Part shown: piece by piece, positions 1 to 64,000 of the stretch
Position numbering within the stretch: position 1 is the stretch's first letter
How the letters are laid out: the number at the start of each line of letters is the position of its first letter
Source: a virus
Length of the DNA stretch: 64,000 bases
Direction: 5' to 3' (one strand)
Virus record (IMG/VR): IMGVR_UViG_3300030228_000019
Notes under the pieces: model-generated
Databases searched by the model: none
Told to the model about the DNA's origin: nothing
What the model saw: the letters and a program-made list of their open reading frames with translations, nothing else
Made by a program: the position numbers and the translations under genes

Positions 1-167
1 ATACTGCAATACAAATCAAGAAGTGTATTATTTTGTAATTTATAAATGTCTGTTGGCTTAACCATTACCTGTGCATCAATTAATGTTTTTATTAAATCAA
101 AAAATTCATTTTTTGTCATTTTATCAATAATTATTATAAAAAGAATGTTTAAAATAAAAAACAAATA

Positions 168-175
168 TTTAAATA
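168..175 (+). promoter_or_regulatory. Archaeal TATA box (TTTAAATA) upstream of ORF 207
   Basis: TTTAAATA about 30 nt before the ATG; the same motif lies 20-35 nt upstream of starts at 21145, 29521 and 30887. Confidence 0.55.
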
Positions 176-206
176 TATAAAATATTAATATTATAGTATT
201 GATAAT

Positions 207-839
207 ATGGCTGGAATTAAAACAGTTTTGCTCATTATTTTAATAGTGGCAGTAATTTTTGCATATTTGTATATATTTCATCCAAGTTATATTGGTAAAA
301 AATTAACAACTACTACTGTTTTACCATCAAATAATACAATAACTAATGCCTTTAATAATTATACAACAACAGCAGAAAAAGAATTTAATGTTTCTAATTC
401 AAGTGTTGTTTCAATTTTGCCAAACAAAGAACCCTATTTATTAAATGAGGTTCTTGAGTCTAATCCCAACCCAATACTTATTATCAATTATACTTATAAT
501 GGAAAAATATATCAGTTACCACAATGGTTTTCTCTATCATTTTCAAATGTAACAGCAAATCTTCCAAATTTTAATGGTCAACATGTTCAATTTTTATTTT
601 TTATGAACAAAACAGCAGCAATAAATTATACTGGAAATCCAGCTAATAGCACACCAATGATATTTAACTACAGTGTTGCTGTGAATGGAACTACTTATAA
701 ATTTACATTTATAAATAATAAAAATAATAAAATAATATCTGTCCTTTCAATTCCATTTAATAAACATCAAGTATTTTATACAATTGGTTTTGAATATAAT
801 AAAACTGTTTATTTAATTCCAGACATAGCAATTGGTTAA
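207..839 (+). CDS. Membrane-anchored secreted protein
   Basis: N-terminal TM helix; Asn/Thr-rich with many N-x-S/T sequons. Confidence 0.8.
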   Translation: MAGIKTVLLIILIVAVIFAYLYIFHPSYIGKKLTTTTVLPSNNTITNAFNNYTTTAEKEFNVSNSSVVSILPNKEPYLLNEVLESNPNPILIINYTYNGKIYQLPQWFSLSFSNVTANLPNFNGQHVQFLFFMNKTAAINYTGNPANSTPMIFNYSVAVNGTTYKFTFINNKNNKIISVLSIPFNKHQVFYTIGFEYNKTVYLIPDIAIG

Positions 840-844
840 TAAAA

Positions 845-3800
845 TTATGTTCTAACATTTTCATATAATGCATAGCCATTAATTGATGAGCCAGATATTG
901 ACCTTGTTGAACTTTCAAGAATATACTCAGATTTTGATATATATAAAAGGTTTGTAGTTCCATCATTATTTACCAGTTTGGTGTTTGCAAACCCTCTAAT
1001 ATAAGCATCAGTTTTACACACCTTATTATTACAAAATCCATATGATACACCACTTGGTTCAGAAGGAATTGTTGTATTGAAAGTTCCTGGTGCTATACTG
1101 ATTTGTGTGGTGGTATTATATATAATAATTCCAGCAACTTGTGAATCAGCTACTCTTTCAGGGGTTCCACCTATAATACCACAACTATGATAAAAATTCT
1201 TTGATGTTATAAGATAATTATATAAAGATTGATACTGGGTGACAAAATTGTTGCAAGTGCTTGGTGGTGAATCAGTAATATTTATATTATAACTTTCAAA
1301 TATAGGAACAGTATAACCATAAAATAAATTAAAGGTAGCTGGTTCCACTGGTAAAATTGAATAACTATTTGATAAATTAAAAAAAGTATCATAGCCTGGT
1401 CCTATATTTAAATTTTGCAGAGATTGTATTGTAACAAGTGGTGTATAACCAAATGTTTTAGTATATGCAGAGATTCCTGTGTTTCCACTAGGACCATTAA
1501 TGTCATAATTAGCAGTTCCATTTGAAAATAATGCTGTTGAAATAAGACCACTTTTAGTTACAGTTGAAACCTGTCCATTAATATTTCCAATAACTAAACA
1601 ATTATCAAGTATTCCAGAATCATAACATTTTGTATAATTTCCATTATTTGAAATTGTCTGTGAACTTGAAACAAAATGATTATTATTGGTGTTGTAAAAT
1701 CCTTCTGTTAGGGAGTATGTGGTTCCACTATACAAGTTAATATATTTAGAAGGGGCTGGTAATACAAAAAGATGTTGTGTGGCTATACTTGTGTTTTTTA
1801 TATAACTGCTATCAAAAGAAGTAAAGATGGGACCACCTGTAATATTATAAGGAACAGTTGTCCATCCAAGTGTTGAAAAACTATAAGGTTGACCAACTAA
1901 ATTTGTTGTTATATTTAGTGGAACAAGGTAAATTGCAATTATAGTATAATTATTTTTATCTGACAAACCAGATATTGTTTTACCAGTTACACCAGAAATT
2001 ATTTCATTTTTTATACCACTAACATATGTTTTTGTTGTATTATCATAAATGGTTAATAAATAATTTTTATTTTTTAAATAATTTGAATAATAAAATTTTA
2101 CTGGATTAATATCTATACTATATATTGTTGGTGAACCCTCTAAATAATAAGTTGTTATATTTGTATATGGTTCACTGGTATTAACTGTTGTATAACCAAA
2201 ATTAGTAGAAACAGCATGAGGAATTAATGAAATATCACCAATACTATCAGGATAGTTATACACAGTGATTGTTCCTGTTGATTTTATTATTTTATTAAAA
2301 AGCACTGATACATTTACAGATATAGTATCAATATATGTTTTATTTATTTTTGGATAACTTTGATTAAACAAGATTGCTGCTTCTTGTTCTGTTATATTAA
2401 TTGGTAAAGAAGTTGTTGATGTTGGTGGTGCTTTGTTTGATTTCAAAACTGTTCCATTTTTTAAATAATATGTAAATTGTATTGTGCTTTCTGGTAAATT
2501 TATTGAATAATTTTGTGAATTATATACAAATTTGTTTTTTGTATTTATATAAAAATATGTTGTATTATCACCAGGTATATCTTGGAATATAGCACCATTT
2601 GAATTTCCATACACTGGGTCAAAACTGTTACCCCAGTTTGAATGTGCAGACACCTGATAAAATGAAAAATTATCATTACCACTGTTTAATTCAGGATTTG
2701 AATACATTTCTATTTTTCCAGCATTATTTATATAAACAGTCAAATTATTTATATTTAAATTTGATGTTGTAAGATTATTAGCAACTGCTGTTGGATAAAT
2801 ATCTGATATTAACACATTTTTCCAAGCAGCATTTAAATACCCTGTTCCTGTCACATGACAGTTATTTCCACTGCACCCACCAGTTCCACCACCAGTGGGT
2901 GGAGGTGGTGGTATTACATGATAGTTTGCTATTATTGTAACATTTTGGCAACCATTAAGTGCTTTCCAATTGTAATTAAAACTTTCTGAATTAGAATTTG
3001 AAATTTTATCACCATTGCAATAAACATTTTGTGATACAAAACTTCCACTGCTTGAAGAGGTTGCTGCAAATGTCCATGTAAATCCAAATGTTGTATTTAA
3101 AGTATTAGCTGAAAATACATTTGTTTTATTAAATGTAAAAGTATAAGGTGTTGCTGTATTTGTTTGATTAGACCAGCCTATTAATGAATTTGTTGGTATT
3201 GCATTTGCTGAAAATGTTGTTGAAACACCACCTAAATTACTGGTTGCTTCCCATGAAATTGTTGGTAAACTAATCTTGAAATTAGCAGTATAGTTTGTTG
3301 CATTTACAACAGTAAATGTATAAGGATTTTGTGTTATTGTTGTTCCAGCATGGGTCCAATTACTAAAAGCATAATATGTATTTGCATTTCCAGTTATTAT
3401 TACTGATTTTCCTTTTGGAACAAATTCACTAATATTATTTCCTGTTATAGTTTTATTATTATATGGTGTATATATACTAACATTTCCTCTTGAACTATTT
3501 GAAGTTTTTACACTAATATTATATTCATATTCATAATCAGCTTGTAAGGTGCAGGGTGCAAATGATAATGATTTAACTGTTTGTGATGGATTAAACAAAT
3601 TAAATCCAGTTGAACATGATAATGAAACAGATGTGTTAAAATCAACAAATGCTAATGCTTTGGTCTTTGTTTTTGTTAAAATAGCAGGATAATTAAAAGA
3701 ATAAGGTGCTGCATCCTGATACATTGTATATGGTAAATTTCTTACAGATTGTTGAATACAAAATCTTGAGGCATCAACACCACAAGTAATATTTGTATCA

Positions 3801-62555: not shown

Positions 62556-62676
62556 AAAAGATAAAAACTTTTTATTAAATTGGTTTGCAGTATAGCAATT
62601 GATTATTATAAAGCTAAATTTAATAAATTAAAAAAGTATCTGTAATTTTAAATTAACACATTGTCTTATTTTATGA

Positions 62677-63060
62677 GTGACACCAGTGAACTCTTTCAAA
62701 AAACATCAGTTTATAAAAAGCATATTTGAAACAGTTACCATTGGTGCTGCTTTAATTAGTATATATTTGTTTTTAATAACAAATTTTGTAAACATAGGAT
62801 TACCAATTGTTATTATTACTATTATATTTTCTTTCATTATTTTTATGGCAATTATTTTTGTATTTTATAGCAACATAACAATTGAATGGTATAATTTTAA
62901 AGAGGAAATTGAATTTGAAATATCATCTTTAAAAACCACAAAATTATTTCTAAAAACAATGATAGAATTTTCTCAAAAGCCAAGACTTAAAAAAGAGTTA
63001 AAAAAAGAGATAAAAGAAATAAACAGCAATATCAGAAAATTGAATAAAAAACTTATTTAA
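62677..63060 (+). CDS. Two-TM membrane protein
   Basis: Two hydrophobic helices and a basic coiled tail. Confidence 0.65.
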   Translation: MTPVNSFKKHQFIKSIFETVTIGAALISIYLFLITNFVNIGLPIVIITIIFSFIIFMAIIFVFYSNITIEWYNFKEEIEFEISSLKTTKLFLKTMIEFSQKPRLKKELKKEIKEINSNIRKLNKKLI

Positions 63061-63326
63061 ACAGAGGAAGACTTTATTTGACTCCAATATGGGTTTTCAT
63101 CAGGTTTTACAGTTTTTATTCCATCAAAAAGCAGTTTTTCAATTTTTGAATAATCAATTTCAATATTTTTCTTTCTTAAAGATTCAACTTCAATAACAAG
63201 AGGTTCAACCAGCCAATCTTGATAAGTATTTTGGTGTAAGTTCATTTTTAGGTTTTTATTTATTTTTTTTGTAACATCTAAAAGTCTGTTTATTTCTTTA
63301 TCTGGTCCATTATTCATAAAAGTCAC
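63057..63326 (-). CDS. Hypothetical protein
   Basis: 89-aa ORF. Confidence 0.55.
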   Translation of the reverse strand: MTFMNNGPDKEINRLLDVTKKINKNLKMNLHQNTYQDWLVEPLVIEVESLRKKNIEIDYSKIEKLLFDGIKTVKPDENPYWSQIKSSSV

Positions 63327-63431
63327 ACAATACTATTGTATTATTAAATATTTATATGTTTCAGTTTTCACTAAAACACTTTAATACACAGTTGTATGGT
63401 ATTAGAGCAACAAACAGAAAAAAATAAACAA

Positions 63432-63998
63432 TTAGTCAAATATTTTTTCTAATATTACTTGTATTTCTTTTTCTCCTTCTGTTTCATTATATATATTTTT
63501 TATTTCATAATCAAATGGAAGGCTGTCTATTTCAGTTTCAGTTGGGTCATTAAGTTCAATTTCTGTTGGTTCTCTTCCATATATTTCCTTATATTTTTTT
63601 ATTCTATTTTTAATATCAGGACTTATTTTAACAACAAATAACTTTCTTTGTGTGTTTCCTGTATATAAAAGATATGAAAGTTCATTCATAAATCTAACAT
63701 CATCAACTATAAAAGGAAATTGTTTTTTTGTTGCAATACTGGTTGCAAGATATTTTATCCAAACATCAGGGTCAATTTCTCTCATTTTTGAACCAAGTTG
63801 CTGCAATAATCTTCTGTTTTTTTCCTTCATACCAAAAACATCTTTTGCAACATCTTTTAGTTTTGCTGCTATTGAAACTTTATAAGCTGTAATACCTTGC
63901 TTTTCTAATTCTTCTTTTAATTTATCAGCATAATATGTCTTTCCAGCAGCCATGTGTCCTATAAAAACTACTCCATCATATTTTATTTGTTTATCCAT
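63432..63998 (-). CDS. Phage-type deoxynucleoside monophosphate kinase
   Basis: GHMAAGKT, A.KLK, RRLLQQLG..MR..DPDVWI, IVDDVRFMNE. Confidence 0.82.
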   Translation of the reverse strand: MDKQIKYDGVVFIGHMAAGKTYYADKLKEELEKQGITAYKVSIAAKLKDVAKDVFGMKEKNRRLLQQLGSKMREIDPDVWIKYLATSIATKKQFPFIVDDVRFMNELSYLLYTGNTQRKLFVVKISPDIKNRIKKYKEIYGREPTEIELNDPTETEIDSLPFDYEIKNIYNETEGEKEIQVILEKIFD

Positions 63999-64000
63999 TT

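What the first reader, a model, noticed from the sequence alone, without database searches (positions are those of the whole stretch)
1..64000. Virus-like replication toolkit combined with a plasmid-like transfer system
Seen: dNMP kinase, NDK, dUTPase, two nucleotidases, DnaQ-like exonuclease, FEN1, Hjc-like, SNF2, tRNAs and phage-type small proteins alongside T4SS/T4P genes, with no recognisable capsid or terminase. Established: such nucleotide-supply sets are typical of large lytic viruses, and VirB4 systems of conjugative elements. Inference: possibly an undescribed class of large archaeal element; DUF2341-like glycoprotein adhesins suggest a Thermoplasmatales or DPANN-associated host, which is tentative.
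Basis: partly seen in the sequence, partly recalled or inferred. Interest (0 to 1): 0.62.

Follow-up and report, generated by a model that had tools for sequence, protein, structure and literature searches.

The report
CG-free self-replicating archaeal conjugative element
This DNA is over half of a roughly 118-kilobase circular, capsid-less genetic element of archaea that carries its own DNA-copying and cell-to-cell transfer machinery, and it belongs to an undescribed family in which several members contain not one C-followed-by-G letter pair, which points to an unknown DNA-cutting conflict.

Summary
Confirmed and extended. The window is 54% of a ~118.7-kb circle: both its ends run into one 116-kb contig. 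The 94% examined has no ribosomal, rRNA, capsid, portal or terminase gene. It encodes PolB, primase, FEN1, topoisomerase VI, Mre11/Rad50, helicases, nucleotide salvage, TFIIB-like, five tRNA genes, a VirB4 cluster and type IV pili; the 514-aa orphan folds like the VirB4 N-domain (Z 14). About 20 VirB4 relatives (40-66% identity; syntenic contigs up to 138 kb) lie only in metagenomes; nothing close in GTDB, PLSDB, INPHARED or the IMG/VR part held. The transfer kit resembles thaumarchaeal ICEs, so: new variant of a known kind. The surprise: zero CG dinucleotides in 228 kb (~3,960 expected) across six VirB4 lineages, while a sister clade has normal CG. A methylase-less PD-(D/E)xK-like gene (19442-20116) is conserved in a second CG-free lineage. 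Host unresolved; 7 kb unseen; transfer and nuclease activity are inferred. The scan noted the CG void on this window already, not on other DNA.

The parts
845..4591 (-). 1248-aa class III signal (pilin-like) surface protein/adhesin; syntenic in relatives
   Evidence: K-G-Q + hydrophobic N-terminus; homologs in L024, L045, L047
4637..5554 (-). 305-aa conserved protein of the transfer cluster, function unknown
   Evidence: in both CG-free and CG-normal relatives, 29-39%; no PDB match
5688..8690 (-). VirB4-like ATPase (1000 aa)
   Evidence: P-loop_TraG E 9e-13, AAA_10; Walker A/B intact; about 20 relatives
8680..10224 (-). 514-aa VirB4 N-terminal-domain-like protein without ATPase domain
   Evidence: AlphaFold pLDDT 73; best matches TrwK/VirB4 of R388, Foldseek E 3e-4, Z 14.0, rmsd 6.7, 314 aligned, next Z 9.1 on a helical hairpin
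10253..11089 (-). 278-aa two-TM protein, VirB3/PrgI-like (inferred)
   Evidence: 2 TM segments; conserved in all relatives; position before VirB4
11148..11567 (-). 139-aa signal peptide + 2 TM protein, VirB2-like pilin (inferred)
   Evidence: topology; same-size gene at the same place in L045, L047, L048, L050
11613..14267 (-). 884-aa FtsK/HerA/TrwB-like ATPase, coupling-protein candidate
   Evidence: FtsK E 1e-6, DUF87 E 2e-5, TrwB_AAD E 0.007; Walker motifs conserved; no TM segment
14284..16209 (+). type IV pilus / VirB11-like secretion ATPase
   Evidence: T2SSE E 1e-7; six close clusters at E<1e-79, then a gap to 26-33%
16204..17172 (-). archaeal-type FEN1
   Evidence: XPG_N/XPG_I; nearest cellular FEN1s 35-41%
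17572..19364 (-). two class III pilin-like genes flanking a 197-aa conserved gene
   Evidence: motif census; homologs in L045, L047, L050
19442..20116 (+). PD-(D/E)xK-like nuclease candidate without a methylase; candidate cause of a k-mer void
   Evidence: Atlas model pTM 0.87, nearest named families PDDEXK_14 and Hjc; 35% identical homolog next to the same NTP-transferase gene in CG-free L050
20340..23020 (+). nucleotidyltransferase, Nudix and epimerase-like genes (sugar-nucleotide block)
   Evidence: block conserved in L050
22981..23475 (-). Hjc-like resolvase
   Evidence: Hjc E 0.0014; 49-53% homologs in L047, L050
23672..28696 (+). two large class III adhesins (738 and 847 aa)
   Evidence: shared modules with 49667-52891 (inverted repeats I1, I2, I7)
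29747..31949 (+). Fic protein and AbiE-like toxin-antitoxin pair
   Evidence: Fic E 3e-16, DUF6036 E 5e-9; SoFic, PDC-S04
32418..32493 (+). tRNA-Lys(TTT); T-loop reads TTCAAAT, i.e. without the usual CG
35421..35960 (-). nucleoside diphosphate kinase
   Evidence: Pfam NDK E 2e-13
36114..36272 (+). degenerate tRNA (GTG loop, His-like) and tRNA-Leu(CAA)
37000..39430 (.). 2.4-kb gene-poor region with a long imperfect palindrome centred near 38135; origin candidate (replication or transfer)
   Evidence: inverted repeats I3, I5, I8; fold -85 kcal/mol, z -11.8; function inferred
44155..44688 (-). HAD/NT5C-like nucleotidase
   Evidence: DxDG motif; HAD_2 E 0.07; PHROG 420
47998..49689 (-). SNF2-family helicase
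49667..52891 (-). 1074-aa DUF2341 adhesin
   Evidence: DUF2341 E 4e-8
52867..53457 (+). DUF1599 / nucleotide modification associated domain 1
   Evidence: E 5e-7
54404..54994 (+). NT5C deoxynucleotidase
   Evidence: E 4e-9
55078..56517 (.). class III pilin-like gene (-) and YdjM membrane hydrolase (+)
   Evidence: YdjM homolog in L049
58526..58999 (-). dUTPase / DCD-fold protein
60265..62283 (.). two class III pilin-like genes around a DnaQ-like exonuclease (61109-61795)
63432..63998 (-). dNMP kinase
   Evidence: PHROG 139 E 5e-27
1..64000 (.). whole window free of CG, GATC, GGCC and GTAC
   Evidence: 0 CG vs ~1,044 expected; 0 GATC/173, 0 GGCC/42, 0 GTAC/125

Best explanation
A ~118-kb circular, capsid-less, self-replicating conjugative element (megaplasmid-like) of archaea, member of an undescribed family. 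Shown: gene content, circular map, family, synteny, CG void. Inferred working: it copies itself with its own PolB, PriS-PriX-type primase, FEN1 and helicases, probably from the palindrome at 37.9-38.3 kb; Mre11/Rad50/Hjc handle recombination and topoisomerase VI separates daughter circles; nucleotidases, dNMP kinase, NDK, dUTPase and the DnaQ exonuclease recycle DNA into dNTPs; a type IV pilus with many variable adhesins binds a recipient; DNA crosses through a VirB4 / VirB4-N-like / VirB3 / VirB2 / VirB6-like channel fed by the 884-aa ATPase; toxin-antitoxin pairs hold it in the host. The total loss of CG is best read as selection by a CG-directed cutting system, so that a single CG is lethal to the element; whether that system is the host's or the element's own is open.
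For: Both window ends run into one contig and converge (window 1-421 = record 886-466; window 64000-53428 = record 55577-66145 of Ga0188175_0008); three more contigs of 106.7-118.2 kb start at other points. Outside the window: PolB 955 aa with motifs A, B, C, PriX-domain primase, TFIIB zinc ribbon, Mre11, Rad50, TopoVI A+B, AbiEii, SF2 helicase, DnaJ, two 4-TM TadB/C-like proteins, a 1772-aa protein with 12 TM-like segments. 514-aa orphan = VirB4 N-domain fold. Transfer cluster syntenic at 41-66% VirB4 identity; replication block syntenic in L049. Element TopoVI A forms its own branch. CG: 0 in 228 kb vs ~3,960 expected; sister clade normal; 0 of 66 strain SNPs create CG vs ~5.2 expected; tRNA T-loops lack CG.
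Against: 7.0 kb (6%) of the circle was not examined. No relaxase, prepilin peptidase, ParA/ParB, Orc1, MCM, PCNA or ligase was recognised. The 884-aa ATPase has no TM anchor and could be HerA-like. TadB/C, VirB2, VirB3 and VirB6 calls rest on topology and position, not on HMM hits. A circular map also fits a circularly permuted virus. The 458/501-aa paralog pair is unresolved (pLDDT 37). No transfer, host or copy-number data.
Confidence: 0.72

Rival explanations
1. An archaeal virus with an unrecognised virion (novel capsid or membrane-enveloped particle) and a circularly permuted genome, whose pili and VirB4 serve attachment, entry or exit.
For: Phage-type nucleotide supply genes, tRNAs and many short ORFs; strict restriction-site avoidance is typical of viruses; several 200-500 aa proteins stay unassigned; 7 kb unseen.
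Against: No head, portal, terminase or tail family (one weak tape-measure hit, E 2e-4, likely coiled coil); no relative in the IMG/VR part held; the genes conserved across both clades are transfer and pilus genes, and the largest conserved orphan folds like VirB4; toxin-antitoxin pairs fit a resident element.
Confidence: 0.13
2. A secondary replicon (chromid/megaplasmid) of a parasitic DPANN-type cell, whose T4SS and pili are a host-attachment and feeding apparatus rather than a means of self-transfer.
For: Many K-[AGS]-Q class III adhesins; salvage-only nucleotide metabolism; two relatives binned as Ca. Micrarchaeaceae; no relaxase.
Against: No GTDB species genome carries this VirB4 family; a sister protein is binned as Saccharolobus, so bins are unreliable; replication proteins have no close cellular relative; relaxases are also absent from proven Sulfolobus conjugative plasmids (PMC6563490).
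Confidence: 0.1
3. Part of a cellular chromosome or an integrated ICE, mis-assembled as a circle.
For: Carries cell-type genes (TopoVI, FEN1, Mre11/Rad50, TFIIB-like); ICEs with the same transfer kit exist.
Against: Independent assemblies stop at 106-118 kb with different start points; no ribosomal protein, rRNA, RNA polymerase or integrase seen; every flank is equally CG-free.
Confidence: 0.03
4. For the CG void only: it results from mutation pressure (methylation of CG followed by deamination) without lethal selection.
For: TG/CA odds ratio 1.26-1.50 in CG-free loci vs 0.98-1.07 in the sister clade; TGCA about twice expectation.
Against: Zero of ~3,960 needs a loss-to-gain ratio above 1000; known CpG methylation leaves residual CG (own knowledge); no new CG among 66 SNPs (Poisson p about 0.005); no methylase in the 94% seen.
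Confidence: 0.2

Closest known systems
Thaumarchaeal integrative-conjugative elements, esp. NitEve-E6 (Krupovic et al. 2019, PMC6563490)
   Same: VirB4 and VirD4-like ATPases, VirB3/VirB6/TadC-like membrane proteins, pilus ATPase, pilins, TFIIB homolog, no relaxase; NitEve-E6 encodes a PolB.
   Different: Those are integrated (median 64 kb), non-syntenic, with ParB and prepilin peptidase. This one maps as a free ~118-kb circle, no integrase or ParB seen, conserved synteny, and adds primase, FEN1, TopoVI, Mre11/Rad50, Hjc, nucleotide salvage, tRNAs and the CG void.
Sulfolobus conjugative plasmids (pNOB8 type)
   Same: VirB4/TrbE and VirD4/TraG pair without a typical relaxase (as stated in PMC6563490).
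   Different: About 25-45 kb, no polymerase or pilus system (own knowledge); no close PLSDB match, best VirB4 hits 22-27% in Bacillota plasmids.
Jumbo circular ECEs of Methanoperedens (PMC13444090) and Borgs
   Same: Large capsid-less archaeal elements with PolB and PriS, no relaxase.
   Different: Jumbo ECEs are >200 kb, carry Orc1 and host-like metabolic genes at 38-42% GC; the paper has no mention of pili or topoisomerase. This element is 25% GC, has no Orc1 seen, and its proteins are far from any host.
Large lytic dsDNA viruses with nucleotide-supply genes (T4/T5-like; own knowledge)
   Same: dNMP kinase, nucleotidases, dUTPase, exonuclease, Mre11/Rad50-like pair, tRNAs, restriction-site avoidance.
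   Different: No virion genes found; PolB only 21-28% to any INPHARED phage.

Membership tests
Archaeal conjugative element (pNOB8 / thaumarchaeal ICE kit) | VirB4/TrbE ATPase | tested here: met
   plus VirB4-N-like partner
Archaeal conjugative element (pNOB8 / thaumarchaeal ICE kit) | VirD4/TraG coupling ATPase | tested here: inconclusive
   884-aa FtsK/HerA/TrwB-like ATPase in the cluster, weak hits, no TM
Archaeal conjugative element (pNOB8 / thaumarchaeal ICE kit) | Pilus ATPase and class III pilins | tested here: met
   T2SSE hit; nine K-[AGS]-Q pilin-like genes by motif
Archaeal conjugative element (pNOB8 / thaumarchaeal ICE kit) | VirB2, VirB3, VirB6, TadC membrane parts | tested here: inconclusive
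   candidates by TM pattern, position and conservation only
Archaeal conjugative element (pNOB8 / thaumarchaeal ICE kit) | Demonstrated DNA transfer | not testable with these tools
   needs culture or time-series host linkage
Thaumarchaeal ICE | Integration in a host chromosome (integrase, att sites, host flanks) | tested here: not met
   window ends converge on one contig, no host flank or integrase in 94%
Thaumarchaeal ICE | TFIIB homolog | tested here: met
   318-aa protein with TFIIB zinc ribbon, E 5e-6, just below cut-off; syntenic gene in L049
Thaumarchaeal ICE | ParB and prepilin peptidase | tested here: inconclusive
   not seen in family lists; 7 kb unseen and lists cut at 25 families
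Caudoviricetes (tailed viruses) | HK97 capsid, portal, terminase, tail module | tested here: not met
   none in PHROGs/Pfam/NCBIfam for 131 proteins; a whole head-tail module is unlikely to fit the unseen 7 kb
Unclassified archaeal virus | Any capsid or virion protein | tested here: inconclusive
   only two orphans folded; one VirB4-like, one unusable
Methanoperedens jumbo ECE | >200 kb, Orc1, host-like proteome and GC | tested here: not met
   118 kb, 25% GC, no Orc1 seen, no close cellular homologs
Cellular (DPANN) chromosome | Ribosomal proteins, rRNA, RNA polymerase | tested here: not met
Type II restriction-modification system | Cognate methyltransferase beside the nuclease | tested here: not met
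   no methylase near 19442-20116 or beside the L050 homolog

The most novel reading that the evidence does not exclude
The family is a class of autonomous, capsid-less archaeal parasites that spread by conjugation and tell self from non-self by sequence absence: an element-encoded, methylase-less nuclease (candidate 19442-20116) cuts at CG, which the element has purged completely, so it can destroy competing or unprotected DNA and recycle it with its salvage enzymes. That would be a dinucleotide-specific restriction activity and a virus-like strategy without a virion.
Probability: 0.22. Interest if true: 0.93.

Novelty: new variant of a known kind. Interest (0 to 1): 0.78.

Why it matters
Large archaeal extrachromosomal elements are poorly known, and none found in the papers searched joins a full conjugation and pilus kit to a near-complete replication machinery as a free circle. 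A family that stays syntenic at 41% VirB4 identity is old and widespread. The CG void is the sharper point: not one CG in 228 kb from six divergent lineages, beside a sister clade with normal CG, implies a CG-directed system in archaea that is either host-coded or carried by the element. It gives a direct test (one 224-aa protein, one cleavage assay) and a natural control clade. A CG-specific nuclease would be new biology and a useful reagent; zero CG is also an easy signature for finding more such elements and their hosts.

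Tried and rejected
No whole genome is held and the JGI records are not searchable by handle. IMG/VR scans with VirB4, its alignment, TopoVI A, dUTPase and the nuclease found nothing; this covers only the part held. GTDB gave two Lachnospiraceae VirB4s at 24-26%. The nuclease has no match in INPHARED, PLSDB or PDB, so the test 'do other carriers lack CG?' could not be run. The 458/501-aa pair gave no family, no PDB hit and an unusable model. Host from phylogeny failed: FEN1 is 35-41% to DPANN, Asgard and Sulfolobales alike; TopoVI A of the elements is one long branch with no resolved cellular sister (FastTree, rows under 300 aa left out). 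The VirB4 tree is the quick tree only; it makes the CG-normal group one clade but does not show or exclude a single origin of the CG-free group (L050 not included). Sequencing or assembly artefact rejected: the void recurs in JGI, Logan, ENA and NCBI assemblies and in divergent lineages. A changed genetic code rejected: table 11 gives 88% coding, Arg is served by AGA/AGG. Ten paper searches found no description of this family or of a CG-free prokaryotic element; the library lacks most subscription papers. I walked outwards from both window ends with the look-up of encoding contigs; that brought about 59 kb of record Ga0188175_0008 into the session. The fetch from genomes states a holding limit of 40,000 bases per metagenome record, so I stopped there and left the last 7 kb (record 20951-27958) unread.

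Full report
1. Observation. The window is 25% GC and 88% coding under table 11. No capsid, portal or terminase family appears.

2. The whole element. The last window protein is encoded on contigs of 106.7, 116.4, 116.4 and 118.2 kb. On Ga0188175_0008, window 64000 continues downwards from record position 55577 and window 1 continues upwards from record position 886. The two ends therefore converge on one contig, giving a circle of about 118.7 kb; the other contigs begin at different points, one near window 32 kb by extrapolation. I examined 47.7 kb of the 54.7 kb outside the window; 7.0 kb is unseen. Outside lie PolB (955 aa, motifs A, B and C present), a primase with a PriX domain, a TFIIB-like protein, Mre11, Rad50, topoisomerase VI A and B, an SF2 helicase, an M16 peptidase, AbiEii, RlaP, DnaJ, two tRNA-Gln genes, more pilin-like genes, two 4-TM proteins that look like TadB/TadC, and membrane proteins of 1127 and 1772 aa. 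No ribosomal protein, rRNA, RNA polymerase, integrase or methylase was seen (for RNA).

3. The transfer cluster. The order is FEN1, pilus ATPase (opposite strand), 884-aa ATPase, 139-aa pilin-like, 278-aa two-TM, 514-aa orphan, VirB4, 305-aa, large adhesin. The 514-aa orphan, folded from 13 sequences (pLDDT 73), matches the N-terminal part of TrwK/VirB4 of plasmid R388 (Foldseek E 3e-4; Z 14.0 against 9.1 for the next row). So the largest conserved orphan is a secretion-system part, not a capsid. Nine genes carry K-[AGS]-Q class III signal peptides.

4. The family. VirB4 has about 20 relatives at 44-70% over the searched region (40-66% full length). All lie on metagenomic contigs; GTDB gives only 24-26% Lachnospiraceae hits and the IMG/VR part held gives none. 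The cluster is syntenic in L024, L045 (a 138-kb contig), L047, L048 and L050, and the replication block (TopoVI, primase, TFIIB-like, PolB, helicase) is syntenic in L049. A second group (L022, L025-L042) has a rearranged cluster with the TadB/C pair next to it and forms one well-supported branch in the quick VirB4 tree. From memory, not from a tool, the window's samples are acid mine drainage and many relatives come from acidic hot springs. NCBI names place relatives in both Ca. Micrarchaeaceae and Saccharolobus bins, so the host is unresolved; FEN1 and TopoVI do not settle it.

5. The CG void. The window has no CG on either strand (about 1,044 expected), and no GATC, GGCC or GTAC. All flanks share this. 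So do L024, L045, L047, L048, L049 and L050: 0 CG in 228 kb against about 3,960 expected. L045 is 31% GC and keeps GATC, and L050 also lacks CTAG and AGCT, so the four-base voids vary by lineage, as host restriction would cause, while CG is invariant. The sister group has normal CG (odds 0.79-1.05) though it too lacks GGCC. Even the tRNA T-loops avoid CG. Among 66 SNPs between strain assemblies none creates a CG, against about 5.2 expected. TG/CA is raised (1.26-1.50), which fits CG being lost by transition but does not tell mutation from selection. An absolute zero argues for selection against every single site (inference). The gene at 19442-20116 has a PD-(D/E)xK-like fold by the Atlas, no methylase partner, and a 35% identical homolog beside the same nucleotidyltransferase gene in CG-free L050. 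Its presence in the other lineages, and its absence from the CG-normal group, could not be tested. An element that cut all CG DNA would kill an unprotected host, so either the host methylates CG, or the nuclease is a weapon against competitors, or the pressure comes from the host and this gene recognises something else.

6. Mechanism. Most likely (0.72) a free, self-replicating conjugative element. Shown: parts, circular map, family, voids. Inferred: replication from the palindrome near 38135 (z -11.8), decatenation by TopoVI, dNTP supply by salvage, pilus-mediated contact, transfer through the VirB4 channel, maintenance by toxin-antitoxin pairs. Rivals: virus with an unrecognised virion (0.13), secondary replicon of a parasitic cell (0.10), chromosome or ICE (0.03).

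7. Comparison. The transfer kit with TFIIB is that of thaumarchaeal ICEs, of which NitEve-E6 also has a PolB, and relaxases are missing there and in Sulfolobus plasmids too (PMC6563490). Jumbo ECEs of Methanoperedens are capsid-less circles with PolB and PriS but are larger, carry Orc1 and look like their host (PMC13444090). It works like an archaeal conjugative element; it is not a member of either described group. No paper found describes this family or a CG-free prokaryotic element, within the limits of the library.

8. Verdict. Observation confirmed, interpretation partly supported. New variant of a known kind, interest 0.78: an undescribed, old family of autonomous archaeal conjugative elements, with a clade-wide absolute CG void that has a named candidate enzyme and a natural control group. 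Earlier scan notes on this same window recorded the void and the nuclease candidate; none exist on other DNA.

Noticed in passing
L008:13124-14500 (-), L014:6262-7767 (+); L049:11641-12870, 18811-20028: A pair of paralogous 405-501 aa proteins sits beside the primase and beside PolB/helicase in two lineages; no family or fold found. Candidate for the missing initiator, helicase or ssDNA-binding part.
   Followed up: partly
window 27180-27411 and 50673-50904; 25104-25155 and 50292-50343: Oppositely oriented adhesin genes share 71-146 nt stretches at 73-80% complementarity, suggesting module shuffling or inversion among adhesins.
   Followed up: no
L022, L025-L042: The CG-normal sister group has no GGCC in any locus (L022: 0 of 21 expected) and few GTAC.
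   Followed up: partly
L049:2494-7892: Seven consecutive genes of 211-230 aa on one strand, likely a tandem paralog array, beside a MoxR-like AAA ATPase and a DUF2201 metallopeptidase.
   Followed up: no
L026:14618-16518; L033:14793-18619: CG-normal relatives carry a methylase-like gene next to a nuclease-like gene, followed by CysD/CysN-like sulfate adenylyltransferase genes (read from sequence starts, not searched).
   Followed up: no
L022:1-825 and 2793-3065: In a CG-normal relative the homolog of the 884-aa ATPase is 1222 aa with a faint LAGLIDADG hit (possible intein), and an Alba-like gene lies in the transfer cluster.
   Followed up: no
window 52867-53457: DUF1599 (nucleotide modification associated domain 1) next to a nucleotidase; a modified base in the element's DNA is not excluded.
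   Followed up: no
window 33300-33587: SemiSWEET/PQ-loop sugar transporter, with a sugar-nucleotide block at 20340-23020; may serve glycosylation of the adhesins.
   Followed up: no
window 34074-35108: Two adjacent paralogous genes (164 and 168 aa) with a 58-nt repeat, a recent tandem duplication.
   Followed up: no
window 32418-32493, 36114-36272; L013:13108-13258; L026:11921-11995: tRNA set Lys, Leu, His-like, Gln, Gln; a tRNA-Gln also occurs in a CG-normal relative.
   Followed up: partly
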